Of a stretch of 64,000 bases of DNA, positions 19,897-26,808 are shown piece after piece. The DNA comes from Candidatus Heimdallarchaeota archaeon (GTDB lineage: Archaea > Asgardarchaeota > Heimdallarchaeia > JABLTI01): assembly GCA_019056785.1 (NCBI GenBank), contig DXJV01000005.1:20716-84715 (forward strand). The letters are read 5' to 3'. Every line of letters begins with the position of its first letter. Positions within the stretch are counted from its first letter, which is position 1. The notes beneath the pieces were generated by a model. The model was not told where the DNA came from and did no database searches. It worked only from the letters and a program-made list of their open reading frames with translations. The position numbers were made by a program, and so were the translations under genes.

Positions 19897-22800
19897 ATGT
19901 CAGAATTGGTTAAAAAAGCCATGGTGTTCGAAGAAAAAGGAAAATGGAGCAATGCTGCGAAAAGCTATTTACAAGCAGCGAGAGAAGCCGTTGAAACTAA
20001 CCAAACAAAAGACGCCAAGAATCTCTTTTTAAAAGCAATTGCTGCTTCTGAAAAAACCGAAGACAATCTCTTATTAGTGGAAAGTGTTTTTGCGTATGAA
20101 AAAATTGCCACTAAAGCTGAGAAAAAAGAAGTGCTCCCAAAGGCACTGCCGGCTGTTAAAAGTTTGTTAGCTCTGGCATTAACTAAGAAGAAGAATCTAC
20201 TGGCCTTTGAATATTTAGAAAAGAAAGAACTTATTAGTAGAAGTACAGGTGTGGATTTAGAAGAGACCTTAAGAGAGAAAGGCGAGGTCTCAAGACGTCT
20301 AGCCTTAAAAATGGTTATCAGTAAAAAAGTGGAGGAACGAGAACGTGGTTTTGCTTTCCTGAAAGAGGCTGCAAAATGCTTTTTAGAAATTAATGCCATT
20401 AAAGAGAAATTTAAAGGTGATTTCCAAGCTTTCCAGTTGTTAATGGAAAAGGGTTTTATAAAAGAGGGGTTCAGTTTATTTGAAAAGCTCATCAGTTTTT
20501 GTGAAACTAATCAACTTGCAGAGGAAGCAACAACCGTTCTTCAGCAAATAATTACTTATGCAAATGCAATTTTAAATGGAAAAGGATCGAAAAAATTGGT
20601 CAAAGCGCTTCAAGCAACTTTCTCTTCTGCGGATCCTGGTGGAGAACTCTTGAAAATAGGCATTGAAAAAGCGCAGGAAATAGGCGCAAATGAAGTTATA
20701 GTCGCTGCAGCAACCATACAAGTTGAGCAAGGCAACCTGCAATTCAATAAAAAGAAATTTGATATTGCTAAACGCCTTTATGAAAAGGCTTTACTTCTTC
20801 TTACAACAATTCAAGCTGTAGATACTGCGAAAAATGTTTTCAAGCAAATTGCCACCAAAGCGTACACCTTACTTGATACGAAAGGGAAATTCCAACTTGC
20901 ACTCGATTATTTTGCAATGCTTCAAATTATGGAAGAGCTCGATAAAGGCTTTCTCGCTGACTTCTTTGTCGAAAAAGGAGCCAACATGTTTCAACGGGAT
21001 CTCATCACTTTGGCGTTAGAGGATTACAAAAGTGCTTGTAGAGTTTATCTCTCTGGTCAGCTAACTGTAAAGTTCGAAAAAACTGTTAGTATAATTTTTG
21101 AAAAAAGTTTGGAGCTTATAGCGCATGCGGACTTTCAAAATGCCCTCATTTATTCACATGATGCAATTTCCATTCTCCTTAAGGTTGAGAAATTTGAAAA
21201 CATAGGTGAGCAGGCTTCTAAAATCGCGCATGCCTTACTCGAAAACAATCAACTCCCTGAAGCAGAAGATTTTGTAAAAATCGCATTTGACAACTTCCTC
21301 AAAGCCGGAAAAACCGTAGAAGCAGCCACTACTTACAAAACCATGGGTGAATCTTTCCTTGCTCTTGAGCGATTTGAAACAGGGGCTGGATATCTCATTC
21401 AGGCAGCAAAAACATATCGAAGTGCCGAAGCTGAAGATAAAATCATGCAGACAGCAAAGCCTCTCCTTAAAGCTGCCATCGATCAACTTATAGATGGGAA
21501 TGCAGACCTCGCACAATCATTAAATCTTAAGGCTATTGAATGTGCGAAAGAAAAAGGTCCATTGGCACAAGTCGAAGTACTTCAGGAGTTTAATACTCAA
21601 GCGATGATTTCTAACCAACCAAAGTTAGTTTTAAACAACATTCAGCTGGCCACTAAAATTGTTGGAGCGAATTTTCCGGCTGAAAAAAGAGCTCTGGCGG
21701 AGAAAGCGATATCCTATGGTCAGCAACTGATAATTTCGAATCAGCAATTTAAGCTGGGAACTGATTTTATCACACATGCTGTTTTAACTCTGGCTGAACT
21801 TGGAGACAGTACCCAGAGTAGTCAGATCATCTTTGAAATTGGTTCTTTACTTTTTGAGAACAAACAACCGGAACTGGCAAAAGGACTGTTGCAATTAATT
21901 ACTCAAGTCTTAAAAACAGAGGAGAATCCTGAAGTTTTCGGAACAAACGTTGCGAATGTTGCCAAACTTCTGATTGAAAATCGATTTGTTGATGATGGTA
22001 TTGATCTCTTGCGCAAGAGTGTTGGCTCCTATCTTAACGTAGGCGGCGTTGAGCCGGTCATTAAATTGGCTCGCTATTGTGCTCTAAAAGCACAGGAAAA
22101 TATGGCAGCGGGTGATGTTGTGTTTGCCAAACACTTGTTTATTGCTGCAATGGAGTTCAGTACCCTCGTTGATTTGGAAGTTCAGAGCGAGATTTTAACT
22201 TCCGCAACAAATGCTTTTCTCGAGATTGGTGATTTCTATACTATAAATGAATTTTATGACTTTGCTAAGGCAAATCTCGAGGGTGAAAAAGACTATTTGG
22301 GAAAAGTGGGCCGCTTACAAATTTTCCAAGGGAGTACTTTGCGTGATCAAAAAGGGTTGGTAGATGAAGCCTCAGAATTTATACACAATGGTATTGCAAC
22401 CTTAAAAGAAGTTGATATGATTGCCGAAGCTGGCGAGGTTGCGCTCAATCAAGGAAAAGCTTTCATTGAGAAGGGGAATTTTGTCTATGGTGAAGAATTG
22501 ATTGAAACTGCAGCTCAAATCTTCATTCAGTTAAATGATATTGAACGTTCTGGCGATGCCTTCTTATCCCTTGCAGAAATTAACATGCAAAAGTCGCAAT
22601 GGCAAGATGCTTTTCAGCAGATTGAACTTGCGAATAAATCCTATAGTCAAACCAACTTGGACAAACTTGCTTCCACAATTATTATCACTGCAGATATCGG
22701 ACAAAAAGCATTAATAAATAAACCCGCTGAAAACAAAGAATTTGCTTTACAATGTTTTGATAGAGCAATCCAACTCGCCAATGAGCATAAGCTCTTTGCC

Positions 22801-25800
22801 AGTGAGGTAGATGTTACTTTACTCGAAGGACGGGCGTTTGCAACAATTAAAGATCACCAAACTGCTTACAACTTCTTTTTACAACTTGCAAACTTGCTCG
22901 AAGAGAAGGATGAAACCGAGAAATCCCCGCTAATCGCTGAAGAACTCACTACTTTTGCGACAATATTCATTGCTGATAATGAAGTTGAGTTAGGACTCCA
23001 ACTGGTAGATTTAGCAACAGCTATTTATTTGCGTCTTGGCCAGCCAATAAATGCTTCGGAGACTTATATGAAAGCCTGTAATGCTTTATTGAAGATGAAC
23101 AAAATCGTTCAAGGCGTAAAGCTTGTGCTTCTTGCTTCTGATACTTTAATGGTAGCAAATGAATACAAACATGCTGTGAGAATTTTAACTGAAATTGTTG
23201 ATTTCCTGTATGATTTGAAAGACTATCAAAATGCTGCCATTGTTGCTGGCCAAATCGTCACTGTTCATCAAAAAACCGGCGAAGTTGAAGAACAAAAGAA
23301 AGTGATAAATCGATTAGTCGAAAAGGCAATCGAAGTGATCAATGAGGGCAGAATCATGGAAGGAGAACAACTTTGGGAGCAGGCAGCCAATTTTAGCATC
23401 TCCGTTGACTTGGATTATGCACTTCAAATCAATGACCAAAGAATTGAAAATCTCTTGAACGCCGGCATGTATAACTCTACTAATAATGCCTTCAAACAGT
23501 TTTTGCCAATTCTAGAAGAAGATAAGGAAAAATTACTTTCACAAGTTGTAAAGATAGCCGAAATTACTGATGATCTTTTTGCGAAAGAAGAATTCAAACT
23601 GGCAAAGGATTTTGTTTTCACGGCAGTTGATTATTACCTTAAAGCTGAGGAATTTGATCAGGTAATAACTTTCTGTTTGGATGTTGGTCAACGGTTTATT
23701 GTTGCTAATGAGGAAACAAGTGGCATTGAGTTGATTGACAAGGCAGCATTTATTGCTAACGATTCTCTAGGTGCACATGAAGCTGCGAAAATCTACCTTC
23801 GCACAGGATTCTTACTTGTTGAAAAGGACTACAATGAAAGTGGTTTTCTGGCAATAAATAAAGCTGTTGACATTGAACTTCAAACGCAAAATATGGAGGG
23901 GTGTAATGAACTTGGTGAGATTGCTATTGAAAAAGCAAATGAACTCATTAACCATAACATTCCTCTTGCAATTAAAATTTATGAGCAAGCTTCGCAAATC
24001 TTTCAGAAAGCATCTAATTTTATTAAAGCAGGAGAAGTACAAACAACGATTCTTAATGCCTTCTTAAGTCTTGGAGATGCAGTTGGAGCAATAAAAGCTT
24101 GCGAACAAGCAGTTGATTATTATCTAAAAGGGAAAAATAGCGAACTTGCCGCAACCGCTGCAAGACAAATAATTGAGTCTTCGAGGAGATTTTTCGATGA
24201 AAATGACTTTCCAAAAGCCGTGTTAATTCTCGAGCGCGGACGATTCTTGGTGGAAAAGACAACAAGATATGATCTTTTGGATTTGATAGTCAGTATCTAC
24301 ATGAACGCTGCAAATCAGAACCTTCCAAATAGAAAATCTGCCATTGGTGTGTTTTTCTTGAAGCGTGCAATTGCAATTGCCGAAAGCAGCCCCGACCCAG
24401 AAGAAATCAAAAAAGTAGTAAACCTCTCATTAACTATTGCTTTGGAAACCATTAAAAAGAAAAACTCTCTTGCAGGAGCAAAAGTCCTGGAAATGATCTC
24501 TCGACTCGAGATTTCTAAAAATGCTCTCTTGTCTCAATTAACCGCGACTCTTCTTGATGCTCTAAAACTCACTTTAGAAACAGAATGGAATATGATCGGG
24601 AAAGTACTTCGAGATGCTTTTCATTTCTTTAAAGGCGCCAATCAAGATGAAGCAATTAAAGAGTTAATTTCCATTTTGACAAAAAGAGCAAATGCTGACT
24701 TGCTCCTCAATAAACCCCAACTTGGCTTCTTCTTTTTAGAGCATGCAATCCGGATTGTTAATGAGTCTGGAGACAAAGAACTAATGTTTTATCTTGGCAA
24801 TGACCTTCTCGAACAGTTCCTCGTTTTGCATGAGGAGGTAACTTTCGATTCTCTCTATCGGTTGCTTGGATATTGCTACCAAATTTTCCAACAGATTCAA
24901 GACTTGGAATCCATCACTCGTGTTGGGGCAGAGTTTGCTAAATTGGGTTCAAAGGACCTTATTAATAATATGCAATCAATCCGTGGCTATGAGTCTCTCT
25001 TAACTGCAAGAGATATTGCAAGTCAGACACAAAATAGTGCGCTTATGAAAGCTGTTGTGCTTGCTCTCTTAGATTTTGCGATTCAACAATCTGCGAAAAA
25101 TGCCAATTCTGTGCTGTCAACCTTAGAGGATATTGTTCAAGGGTTAAAAGAATTCGAAATACCAAAGTCAACATCAGTAGCTATTGATTACGCTTCCTTG
25201 CAAAGTTATCTTAAAACTCTCACCTCTTTTGGCAATAAAGTCAGTAAAAATGATAAAACATTCAAGCTTGGGAAGAAGATCATTCAAAATTGCTCTAGAT
25301 TACTCGCCCTCACCGGCAACCATCTTGAACTCGAAAAAGATTTAGCTGATGTCAAAAAGAACATGCAGAAACTTTGTCGCCGGGGCAATCAAGAGGCAGC
25401 TTATAAATTGCGAGAAGCAGCCATTGTTTTTATTGATTTGAATGAAACAAACCAGGCCATTAAAATTGCTGAAGATGCTTTTGCAGCTTCCCAACAACTA
25501 CTAGAGCGGAAAAAGTACCTCGATTCTGTGGAATTTGCTAAAGTGAGTTTGGTTGTTAACCAAAAACTCGATATCACTTCTGAGTTAAAAAACATCGGCT
25601 TATTTGCCTACAGTTCAGGTGACCGGCTTATAAATGAAGGCAAAATTCTGGAGGCAATGGACTTTTATGATATTGCAATCGAGGCCTTCGATTTATCAAA
25701 TGACGATGAGAATTCTAATCGCTTGATCAACAAGATTGTACAGACGCGTGAATGGGATGCCAATAAAATGGTTGCTTTTCAAGTCTATAAAATAGCCTCC

Positions 25801-26808
25801 GAATCAGCCATTCGAATGAAAAACTGGCAGAAGGCTCATGAAATTGCCAATAAATGTTATAATCGTGGTATTGCTTTTATCGACCAACCACGGGTTCCAA
25901 CTGAAATATCGCTAAAATTCATCACCCTTGCCGGGCGAATTTTTGAGGATATAGGTGCAATCAAAGATGCTGCCAATTCCTATGATTCTGCCATTCTAAA
26001 ATTCATTCGCTTAATGAGAACCAGAAAAAACATTGAATCAATAATTACTGAGCTTCTTGTAAAAACGGGAATAAATCGAATGGCTGGTTGTGATATGGAC
26101 TCACTTGAGACCATCTTTCTGCGAGTCATGGAATTAGCTGAAATGAAGAAGTCCAAATACACGAAGATCATCTCTCGCGTCTTAAAACTCATTAATTCTT
26201 CTAAGGTTGGTCAAGCATGGGACTTGATGGTTTCTCTTCCTTATGTCTCCCATGGGCGAATCCGGAAAATTATTGGAACAACAAAGCGTCGGATAATTTA
26301 CGACCTTCAGTCCAAAGGAACTTTCGATCGTACGGTTCTCTCTACAACAGACCGCTCTTTACCGCTTTCAGATTATCTCATCGAAAATCTCTTAATTTCC
26401 CGTAAAATTGATGGGCAATCAATAAACAAAGATGTCTTTATTTCTGCTACGAAAATTAAAGCCATTCGTTCGTACTTTTATAATGAATATGAGCTTTGGG
26501 GTCGAGTTGATTTAGAGGCTCTTACAAAGGAATTTGGCGTCCTCCCCACCGATGCAGCATCCATTGTCCGGCGGGAATTTCTCCCCACAATTTATATGGC
26601 GGTACTTGATACAGAGCAAAAAGTCTTCTATTCTTTTGACCGCTTAAAAGCTGAAATCTCTCTTATTCTTGGACGTGAACGTAAAAAGAACGCTCATTTT
26701 GATCCCATGCAAGTTGCTTCGGAAATGCATGTCCCTCCTGATATCATTAAAGAGGTTCTTCGGGAAATTTCTTGCGATGAAGTAGTGGAAAATGCTCCTA
26801 CAATGTGA
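19897..26808 (+). CDS. Giant alpha-solenoid (SNAP/TPR-like repeats) with C-terminal PCI-like winged helices
   Basis: About 2300-aa open frame; ATG 19897 follows GGTGA. Recurring A-xx-Y/F-xx-A/G helical-pair motifs. C-terminal WGRVDLEALTKEFGV...AVLDTEQKVFY. Confidence 0.8.
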   Translation: MSELVKKAMVFEEKGKWSNAAKSYLQAAREAVETNQTKDAKNLFLKAIAASEKTEDNLLLVESVFAYEKIATKAEKKEVLPKALPAVKSLLALALTKKKNLLAFEYLEKKELISRSTGVDLEETLREKGEVSRRLALKMVISKKVEERERGFAFLKEAAKCFLEINAIKEKFKGDFQAFQLLMEKGFIKEGFSLFEKLISFCETNQLAEEATTVLQQIITYANAILNGKGSKKLVKALQATFSSADPGGELLKIGIEKAQEIGANEVIVAAATIQVEQGNLQFNKKKFDIAKRLYEKALLLLTTIQAVDTAKNVFKQIATKAYTLLDTKGKFQLALDYFAMLQIMEELDKGFLADFFVEKGANMFQRDLITLALEDYKSACRVYLSGQLTVKFEKTVSIIFEKSLELIAHADFQNALIYSHDAISILLKVEKFENIGEQASKIAHALLENNQLPEAEDFVKIAFDNFLKAGKTVEAATTYKTMGESFLALERFETGAGYLIQAAKTYRSAEAEDKIMQTAKPLLKAAIDQLIDGNADLAQSLNLKAIECAKEKGPLAQVEVLQEFNTQAMISNQPKLVLNNIQLATKIVGANFPAEKRALAEKAISYGQQLIISNQQFKLGTDFITHAVLTLAELGDSTQSSQIIFEIGSLLFENKQPELAKGLLQLITQVLKTEENPEVFGTNVANVAKLLIENRFVDDGIDLLRKSVGSYLNVGGVEPVIKLARYCALKAQENMAAGDVVFAKHLFIAAMEFSTLVDLEVQSEILTSATNAFLEIGDFYTINEFYDFAKANLEGEKDYLGKVGRLQIFQGSTLRDQKGLVDEASEFIHNGIATLKEVDMIAEAGEVALNQGKAFIEKGNFVYGEELIETAAQIFIQLNDIERSGDAFLSLAEINMQKSQWQDAFQQIELANKSYSQTNLDKLASTIIITADIGQKALINKPAENKEFALQCFDRAIQLANEHKLFASEVDVTLLEGRAFATIKDHQTAYNFFLQLANLLEEKDETEKSPLIAEELTTFATIFIADNEVELGLQLVDLATAIYLRLGQPINASETYMKACNALLKMNKIVQGVKLVLLASDTLMVANEYKHAVRILTEIVDFLYDLKDYQNAAIVAGQIVTVHQKTGEVEEQKKVINRLVEKAIEVINEGRIMEGEQLWEQAANFSISVDLDYALQINDQRIENLLNAGMYNSTNNAFKQFLPILEEDKEKLLSQVVKIAEITDDLFAKEEFKLAKDFVFTAVDYYLKAEEFDQVITFCLDVGQRFIVANEETSGIELIDKAAFIANDSLGAHEAAKIYLRTGFLLVEKDYNESGFLAINKAVDIELQTQNMEGCNELGEIAIEKANELINHNIPLAIKIYEQASQIFQKASNFIKAGEVQTTILNAFLSLGDAVGAIKACEQAVDYYLKGKNSELAATAARQIIESSRRFFDENDFPKAVLILERGRFLVEKTTRYDLLDLIVSIYMNAANQNLPNRKSAIGVFFLKRAIAIAESSPDPEEIKKVVNLSLTIALETIKKKNSLAGAKVLEMISRLEISKNALLSQLTATLLDALKLTLETEWNMIGKVLRDAFHFFKGANQDEAIKELISILTKRANADLLLNKPQLGFFFLEHAIRIVNESGDKELMFYLGNDLLEQFLVLHEEVTFDSLYRLLGYCYQIFQQIQDLESITRVGAEFAKLGSKDLINNMQSIRGYESLLTARDIASQTQNSALMKAVVLALLDFAIQQSAKNANSVLSTLEDIVQGLKEFEIPKSTSVAIDYASLQSYLKTLTSFGNKVSKNDKTFKLGKKIIQNCSRLLALTGNHLELEKDLADVKKNMQKLCRRGNQEAAYKLREAAIVFIDLNETNQAIKIAEDAFAASQQLLERKKYLDSVEFAKVSLVVNQKLDITSELKNIGLFAYSSGDRLINEGKILEAMDFYDIAIEAFDLSNDDENSNRLINKIVQTREWDANKMVAFQVYKIASESAIRMKNWQKAHEIANKCYNRGIAFIDQPRVPTEISLKFITLAGRIFEDIGAIKDAANSYDSAILKFIRLMRTRKNIESIITELLVKTGINRMAGCDMDSLETIFLRVMELAEMKKSKYTKIISRVLKLINSSKVGQAWDLMVSLPYVSHGRIRKIIGTTKRRIIYDLQSKGTFDRTVLSTTDRSLPLSDYLIENLLISRKIDGQSINKDVFISATKIKAIRSYFYNEYELWGRVDLEALTKEFGVLPTDAASIVRREFLPTIYMAVLDTEQKVFYSFDRLKAEISLILGRERKKNAHFDPMQVASEMHVPPDIIKEVLREISCDEVVENAPTM

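What the first reader, a model, noticed from the sequence alone, without database searches (positions are those of the whole stretch)
19897..26808. Giant SNAP/TPR-like solenoid capped by a PCI-like domain and a further winged helix
Seen: recurring units such as KGKWSNAAKSYLQAA, AFDNFLKAGKTVEAATTY, AAQIFIQLNDIERSGDAF, ATAIYLRLGQPINASETY, AVDYYLKAEEFDQ and AVDYYLKGKNSELAA. From about 26490, YELWGRVDLEALTKEFGVLPTDAASIVRREFLPTIYMAVLDTEQKVFY fits the PCI winged-helix consensus, and a second HTH follows (FDPMQVASEMHVPPDIIKEVL). Known: helical repeats + PCI-WH define proteasome-lid, CSN and eIF3 subunits, which oligomerise through the WH; tandem WH domains occur in UFL1/DDRGK1. Inference: an unusually long PCI-type scaffold that may self-assemble.
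Basis: partly seen in the sequence, partly recalled or inferred. Interest (0 to 1): 0.72.

Follow-up and report, generated by a model that had tools for sequence, protein, structure and literature searches.

The report
Twin giant solenoids with winged-helix tails
An Asgard archaeon of the Gerd lineage makes a real 2,303-residue rod-like repeat protein ending in three small winged-helix docking domains, and every genome of its family also carries a very diverged twin of the same length, which points to a lineage-specific scaffold built from eukaryote-like parts whose job is not yet shown.

Summary
Confirmed. Window 19897-26808 encodes a soluble 2303-aa protein of a Gerdarchaeales (GTDB JABLTI01) Asgard archaeon. 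About 51 SNAP-type 40-43-aa hairpins are followed by three winged helices, not two. The WH trio best matches UFL1/DDRGK1 (Foldseek E 9e-5, TM 0.5). Solenoid end plus WH ranks PCI subunits first, but with low TM, and Pfam PCI is not met. The genome has a second 2308-aa paralogue at 18% identity, collinear block by block with no repeat gained or lost. Both occur in 12 of 12 family genomes; no full-length relative was found elsewhere. No UFC1 or free Ufm1 was found, and the two MPN/JAB proteins do not look like lid subunits, so neither a UFM1 E3 nor a lid/CSN subunit is supported. Best reading: a non-enzymatic, length-constrained scaffold docking through its WH tail, probably with its twin (0.4). 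The scan noted this family before in other genomes, mostly the twin. I found no paper describing it, but UFL1/PCI-like WH arrays in Asgard are published.

The parts
19897..26808 (+). Gene for paralogue A, 2303 aa (P0001), soluble, no signal peptide or TM segment seen
   Evidence: highest 19-residue hydropathy 1.4
19897..26250 (+). SNAP-type alpha-solenoid, residues 1-2118, about 51 hairpins of 40-43 aa, net acidic (about -57)
   Evidence: Pfam SNAP over cut-off; periodicity; gamma-SNAP/Sec17 Z 13-14 for the last hairpins; charge. Only the last 180 residues were modelled
25894..26445 (+). Conserved basic zone specific to paralogue A (last hairpins, helical bundle and WH1; residues about 2000-2183)
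   Evidence: net +9 in the 2001-2200 block and +5 in WH1 across 16 orthologues, against -2.5 and -1 in paralogue B; 39% invariant residues in 1940-2183
26251..26445 (+).
   Evidence: AF2 models; eIF3k and PCID2 alignments run across bundle and WH1
26446..26634 (+).
   Evidence: UFL1-DDRGK1 8b9x Z 9.8, rmsd 2.9 over WH2-WH3
26635..26793 (+). WH3 (residues 2247-2299), three helices without the wing hairpin; paralogue B keeps a full PCI-like ending here
   Evidence: B's WH3 is the part hit by Pfam PCI below cut-off
17607..19760 (+). Upstream co-directional gene: FG-GAP/BBS2-like beta-propeller, Zn ribbon, longin-like tail; possible but unproven partner
   Evidence: Pfam (the longin call is from sequence appearance and note e1-5518672, no Pfam hit); directly adjacent in 10 of 11 loci examined, but the whole block is syntenic

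Best explanation
A cytoplasmic, non-catalytic scaffold of fixed length. A rod of about 51 SNAP-type hairpins (contour of roughly 50 nm if each adds about 1 nm; inferred from general TPR/SNAP geometry) presents binding surfaces along its length. The PCI-like end (helical bundle plus WH1) and the UFL1-like WH2-WH3 serve as the docking and assembly module. It most likely works with its twin, paralogue B (G000:C18:33088-40011), as a two-subunit, MPN-free assembly like the Sac3-Thp1 PCI pair or the UFL1-DDRGK1 pair, in protein sorting at membranes or the ubiquitin/ESCRT interface. Shown: gene, repeats, three WH, twin, co-occurrence, collinearity, restricted range. Inferred: no catalysis, docking through WH, A-B binding, pathway.
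For: No catalytic domain in Pfam or NCBIfam. The tail is the most conserved part, with 38-39% invariant residues against 6% in the first 700. Its closest folds are assembly modules: UFL1/DDRGK1 and PCI subunits. A and B are both found in 12 of 12 family genomes, including 64% and 69% complete ones. All 8 blocks of A best match the same-position block of B; offsets stay within -21 to +25 residues and the largest gap is 20, so no 41-aa repeat was gained or lost at 18% identity. Only 11 of 2309 columns have a gap among 16 A orthologues. A and B differ at the tail (A wingless WH3 and basic zone, B complete WH3 and neutral), as specialised partners would. The nearest distant relatives of the WH trio are roughly 790-aa proteins with UFL1/PCI/DDRGK WH arrays and a Vps28 domain, a fusion type linked to ubiquitin-dependent membrane remodelling in 10.1101/2020.10.19.343400 and PMC10936438.
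Against: A and B lie on different contigs in unrelated neighbourhoods. Co-occurrence is within one family, so it is not independent evidence. The low indel rate is matched by several compact neighbours, so it is striking only for a repeat protein. Conservation peaks of A and B along the rod differ, which fits separate partners equally well. The pathway rests on weak homology (E 1e-7 to 1e-11) to a promiscuous module. About 85% of the chain was not modelled.
Confidence: 0.4

Rival explanations
1. A and B are independent scaffolds: an old whole-gene duplication in which each copy docks by its WH tail onto a different partner. For A this could be the upstream propeller-longin protein, giving a split protocoatomer/tether-like unit.
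For: Different loci, different conservation peaks and different tail charge. The propeller gene is co-directional and directly adjacent in 10 of 11 loci. A small longin-like gene lies two genes downstream of B in most loci.
Against: The whole neighbourhood, including rubrerythrin, thioredoxin, MFS and ABC genes, is equally syntenic. A glyoxalase gene separates the pair in the most diverged locus. Independent functions do not explain why the repeat count stayed equal in A and B.
Confidence: 0.22
2. A scaffold-type E3: the WH trio binds a charged E2 as the UFL1/DDRGK1 minimal ligase does, and the solenoid recruits substrates, using archaeal ubiquitin E2s or a Ufm1-like modifier.
For: The WH trio's best fold is UFL1/DDRGK1; three tandem WH suffice for E3 activity in UFL1/UFBP1 (PMC9627666). 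B scores at the Pfam E3_UFM1_ligase cut-off. Three UBC-fold proteins are in the genome. A tandem Ufm1-like protein lies 3.4 kb upstream of B in all loci that reach it.
Against: UFC1 is over cut-off in 0 of 12 family genomes. No free Ufm1 was found; the Ufm1-like domains are N-terminal in a membrane protein. The ThiF gene beside it is absent from one diverged locus. A itself has no Pfam UFL1 hit. PMC10183829 argues that Asgard UFL1/DDRGK1 predate UFM1 and may act independently of it.
Confidence: 0.13
3. The tail binds RNA or the ribosome, as SelB WH arrays, the TREX-2 PCI pair and UFL1 on 60S do; the solenoid is an adaptor.
For: SelB tandem WH ties with UFL1 in the wide structural search (Z 10.0 against 9.4). 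PCID2/TREX-2 aligns at Z 9-11. A has a conserved basic zone around WH1.
Against: WH2 and WH3 of A and all WH of B are neutral or acidic, and the rod is strongly acidic. Identity to SelB is 8%. A shared WH fold shows no function.
Confidence: 0.13
4. One reading: a true PCI subunit that homo-oligomerises into a WH horseshoe and takes MPN/JAB partners, a proto-lid/CSN.
For: The top 39 Foldseek hits of the last 364 aa are lid, CSN and eIF3 PCI subunits; 7 of 10 Atlas shape hits are eukaryotic PCI families. Two JAB proteins are over cut-off in the genome.
Against: TM is only 0.2-0.33. There is no Pfam PCI hit for A. WH1 is followed by two more WH rather than a free tail. The JAB proteins are unlinked and end in a coiled coil plus TM helix or an Ig-like domain. 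The other PCI-HMM hits are WH in HEAT, membrane or Zn-ribbon proteins, not helical-stack PCI subunits.
Confidence: 0.1

Closest known systems
UFL1-DDRGK1 (UFBP1) tandem winged-helix array (PDB 8b9x, 8qfc, 8c0d; PF09743/PF09756)
   Same: Three head-to-tail PCI-like WH units; best Foldseek hit, E 8.8e-5, TM 0.5, 17% identity; a truncated terminal WH
   Different: The array is C-terminal after 2100 aa of solenoid; there is no UFL1 N-terminal helix/partial WH; A's WH3 lacks only the wing; no UFC1 found in the family
PCI proteins (Rpn6/Rpn5, CSN1/2/4, eIF3c/k, PCID2/Thp1-Sac3)
   Same: [quoted passage not shown]
   Different: Five to six times longer, three WH, below Pfam cut-off, TM 0.2-0.33, no lid-type MPN set
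alpha/gamma-SNAP (Sec17)
   Same: 40-43-aa hairpins, Pfam SNAP over cut-off, Z 13-14 including the terminal bundle
   Different: About eight times longer; the C-terminus is capped by WH domains; generic SNAP-like repeats are common across Asgard
Asgard multidomain proteins with UFL1/PCI WH arrays and Vps28-C (about 790 aa; fusion type described in 10.1101/2020.10.19.343400 and PMC10936438)
   Same: Homologous WH array, profile E down to 1e-11 locally and 7e-8 per genome
   Different: They carry an N-terminal Zn finger, an appendage-like region and Vps28-C, and have no giant solenoid; they are found in another class
SelB C-terminal WH array
   Same: Tandem WH geometry, Z 10
   Different: 8% identity, no GTPase, WH2-3 not basic

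Membership tests
PCI proteins | Helical stack directly followed by a winged helix | tested here: met
   AF2 models; PCI subunits fill Foldseek ranks 1-39; eIF3k Z 8.4, PCID2 Z 9-11
PCI proteins | Pfam PCI (PF01399) at curated cut-off | tested here: not met
   No hit for A; B 13.9-15.4 bits against 22, on WH3
PCI proteins | Single C-terminal WH followed by a tail | tested here: not met
   Three tandem WH units
PCI proteins | Set of six PCI plus two MPN subunits in the genome | tested here: inconclusive
   Two JAB proteins with non-lid C-termini, unlinked; no other helical-stack PCI protein recognised; genome 83% complete
PCI proteins | Assembly by side-by-side WH packing | not testable with these tools
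   Needs biochemistry or a solved structure
UFL1/DDRGK1 UFM1 E3 | Tandem PCI-like WH array | tested here: met
   Foldseek ranks 1-5 are UFL1 entries; VIA Z 9.1-9.8
UFL1/DDRGK1 UFM1 E3 | Pfam E3_UFM1_ligase at cut-off | tested here: inconclusive
   A has no hit; B scores 21.9-23.8 against 23.2; 12 of 33 A+B members hit weakly, best 1e-5
UFL1/DDRGK1 UFM1 E3 | N-terminal helix and partial WH that completes the partner's partial WH | tested here: not met
   Array is C-terminal in both paralogues; B's WH3 is complete
UFL1/DDRGK1 UFM1 E3 | Cognate E2 UFC1 and free Ufm1 in the genome | tested here: not met
   UFC1 over cut-off in 0 of 12 family genomes (64-92% complete); only a membrane-protein-fused Ufm1-like pair found in G000
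UFL1/DDRGK1 UFM1 E3 | Ligase activity | not testable with these tools
   Needs an in vitro assay
SNAP/Sec17 | SNAP-type hairpin repeats | tested here: met
   Pfam SNAP 36 bits against 25; period 40-43; Z 13.9
SNAP/Sec17 | About 290 aa with a free C-terminal ATPase-binding end | tested here: not met
   2303 aa; WH trio follows the bundle
Protocoatomer (beta-propeller + alpha-solenoid) | Propeller and solenoid in one chain or an obligate pair | tested here: inconclusive
   Separate genes; adjacent in 10 of 11 loci inside a wholly syntenic block; split by a glyoxalase gene once

The most novel reading that the evidence does not exclude
A and B form a heterodimeric rod of evolutionarily fixed length, joined or polymerised through their WH tails, that acts as a cage, tether or molecular ruler in Gerdarchaeales cells: a eukaryote-style structural machine built independently from SNAP repeats and UFL1/PCI winged helices.
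Probability: 0.2. Interest if true: 0.8.

Novelty: new variant of a known kind. Interest (0 to 1): 0.5.

Why it matters
Gerdarchaeales belong to the Heimdall group near the root of eukaryotes (PMC10936438). PCI subunits, SNAPs and UFL1/DDRGK1 are separate eukaryotic scaffolds; here one chain joins SNAP repeats, a PCI-type junction and a UFL1-type WH array. It shows that the full PCI layout exists in an Asgard archaeon, and it offers a test of what UFL1-like WH arrays do without UFC1, a question raised in PMC10183829. The limit is that the family was found only in one order, so it is more likely a lineage-specific invention than an ancestor of lid, CSN, eIF3 or UFL1.

Tried and rejected
Complex prediction of the A and B C-terminal 274 aa gave no verdict (score 0.00); the tool states that this is no evidence either way. 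No RNA holder was listed for the locus. PDB sequence searches found nothing significant for the tail and only weak TPR/SNAP hits for the rod; NCBIfam found nothing. ESM Atlas feature hits were all 0.80 or lower; the top one is a 282-aa Thorarchaeota cluster with 19% PCI, a lead only. The sigma-70 promoter scan was at chance level and does not suit archaea. Gene neighbourhood as functional evidence was rejected because whole blocks, housekeeping genes included, are conserved in the genus. An artefact (frame, repeat DNA, misassembly) was rejected because orthologues at 48-55% identity keep the length. Bacterial TPR-CHAT/NB-ARC was rejected: no such domain. The low indel rate is not unique when compared with neighbours. 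Paper searches for Asgard + UFL1 + winged helix and for Gerdarchaea + solenoid returned nothing; the library is incomplete.
Full report
Observation. The window holds one open frame at 19897-26808 (+), 2303 aa from the ATG. Pfam gives SNAP at 36 bits (cut-off 25) and only sub-threshold TPR/MIT hits. Profile autocorrelation peaks at lags 20 and 40-43 in both this protein and its paralogue, so the repeat is the longer SNAP-type hairpin rather than the 34-aa TPR; about 2118 residues give about 51 hairpins. No segment is hydrophobic enough for a TM helix.

Source. Homologues are 2302-2306 aa at 48-55% identity and are labelled Heimdallarchaeota or Asgard. The JABLTI01 assembly has the same contig as genome G006, which is in the window's genus. 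JABLTI01 is the GTDB order for Gerdarchaeota (PMC9723677). The lineage assignment is therefore indirect but firm.

The C-terminus. An AF2 model of the last 364 aa (pLDDT 79) and one of the last 199 aa (pLDDT 86) show a helical stack, then WH1 (2119-2183), WH2 (2184-2246) and a wingless WH3 (2247-2299). For the 364-aa model, Foldseek ranks 1-39 are lid, CSN and eIF3 PCI subunits (best E 3e-4, TM 0.2-0.33). The rigid aligner prefers SNAPs for the helical part (Z 13.9) and aligns eIF3k and PCID2 across bundle and WH1 at Z 8-11. These Z values are within the range expected for helical repeats, so the PCI resemblance is architectural. For the WH trio alone, ranks 1-5 are UFL1/DDRGK1 (E 8.8e-5, TM 0.5), with SelB tied in the wide search. 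Peter et al. class UFL1/UFBP1 WH units as PCI-like (PMC9627666), so the two resemblances are one.

The twin. The same genome encodes a 2308-aa paralogue B at C18:33088-40011, 18% identical. Profile alignment is collinear end to end: 8 of 8 blocks of A match the same-position block of B best (two only narrowly), offsets stay between -21 and +25, and the largest gap is 20 residues. Each WH matches its positional counterpart. This is a whole-gene duplication after which no full repeat was gained or lost. B ends in a complete WH3 and reaches the Pfam UFL1 cut-off marginally. A has a conserved basic zone at the last hairpins and WH1 that B lacks.

Range. Both paralogues are found in 12 of 12 genomes of the family. 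A profile of the tail run against 1.84 billion representatives returned 10 clusters, all at E below 1e-100, and nothing weaker. Among 400 genomes of the phylum, matches outside the family are weak and partial: about 790-aa proteins whose WH arrays hit PCI, UFL1 and DDRGK and that end in Vps28, and generic SNAP-like repeats of 65 bits or less. The Vps28 plus UFL1-domain fusions are already described as Asgard-specific architectures (10.1101/2020.10.19.343400; PMC10936438). The WH module is thus a known Asgard part; its fusion to a giant twin solenoid is what I could not find described. A recent preprint reports alpha-solenoid scaffolds shared by Asgard and eukaryotes but has no mention of PCI, UFL1, SNAP or winged helix (PMC13734099).

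Partners. Two JAB proteins pass the cut-off but are unlinked and end in a coiled coil plus TM helix or an Ig-like domain. The other PCI-HMM hits are WH domains in HEAT, membrane or Zn-ribbon proteins. UFC1 is not found in 12 family genomes; three UBC-fold proteins exist in G000. A membrane protein with two Ufm1-like domains lies upstream of B, and a ThiF gene usually lies beyond it, but ThiF is gone from that position in one diverged locus and no free Ufm1 was found. Asgard Ufm1 homologues, some with multiple hit regions, are published (PMC12962969). Upstream of A lies a propeller-longin gene, adjacent in 10 of 11 loci and separated by a glyoxalase gene in one. Because entire blocks are syntenic, neither linkage is strong evidence.

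Mechanism. Shown: a conserved, soluble, fixed-length SNAP-type rod with a PCI-type junction and three WH, in two diverged copies. Inferred: it is a scaffold that docks through the WH tail. Precedents for two paralogous WH-bearing subunits acting as a pair without MPN proteins are Sac3-Thp1 (PMC3675071) and UFL1-UFBP1 (PMC9627666). An A-B assembly best explains the kept repeat count and the tail asymmetry, but no result here shows binding. I give it 0.4, against independent scaffolds 0.22, scaffold E3 0.13, RNA/ribosome binding 0.13 and a proto-lid 0.1.

Verdict. It works like a PCI/UFL1-type scaffold but fails the membership tests for PCI subunits, UFL1 and SNAP. It is a new variant of a known kind, limited to one Asgard order. 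The scan had noted the family in other genomes, mostly paralogue B; those notes agree but are not independent support. Interest 0.5.

Noticed in passing
L001:3411-5657 (-), G000:C18: 748-aa protein with two N-terminal Ufm1-like domains (Pfam Ufm1 E 0.011 on the second), a long acidic linker, a probable Ig-like domain and C-terminal TM helices; conserved upstream of paralogue B in the family. The domains are internal, so it is not a free modifier.
   Followed up: partly
L001:17311-17727 (+): 138-aa longin-like gene (by appearance, no Pfam hit) two genes downstream of paralogue B, conserved in 10 loci.
   Followed up: no
G000:C41:22760-23650 (+): Stand-alone tandem WH protein (297-aa frame) hitting UFL1 at cut-off and DDRGK/PCI weakly; a candidate WH-docking partner of A or B.
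   Followed up: no
L022:1492-2307 (G000:C14): JAB/MPN protein with a C-terminal coiled coil and a predicted TM anchor, a membrane-tethered Rpn11-like protein.
   Followed up: partly
L054:6714-9086 and related loci L055-L058, L063, L064: About 790-aa proteins of another Asgard class with Zn finger, PCI/UFL1/DDRGK WH array well over cut-off, appendage-like region and Vps28-C; better UFL1 homologues than the protein studied here.
   Followed up: partly
L073 (DATKZI010000004.1) and protein P0005: Record titled Bathyarchaeia is the contig of G009, which GTDB places in the window's Gerd genus; probably an NCBI mislabel. The 'Thorarchaeota' labels of P0022 and P0046 may be similar and were not checked.
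   Followed up: partly
G000:C14:28097-30196 and C14:37362-39215: Two HEAT or helical proteins with a PCI-like WH and C-terminal Zn ribbon/RING-like cysteine clusters; possible E3-type proteins.
   Followed up: no
G001:C396: One TAG inside the match to paralogue B in a 64%-complete, fragmented genome; assembly error or a broken copy, not examined.
   Followed up: no
window 14181-17302 (-): Rubrerythrin, desulfoferrodoxin, flavodiiron-type and thioredoxin-fold genes form an oxidative-stress block that is syntenic with the giant gene throughout the genus.
   Followed up: no
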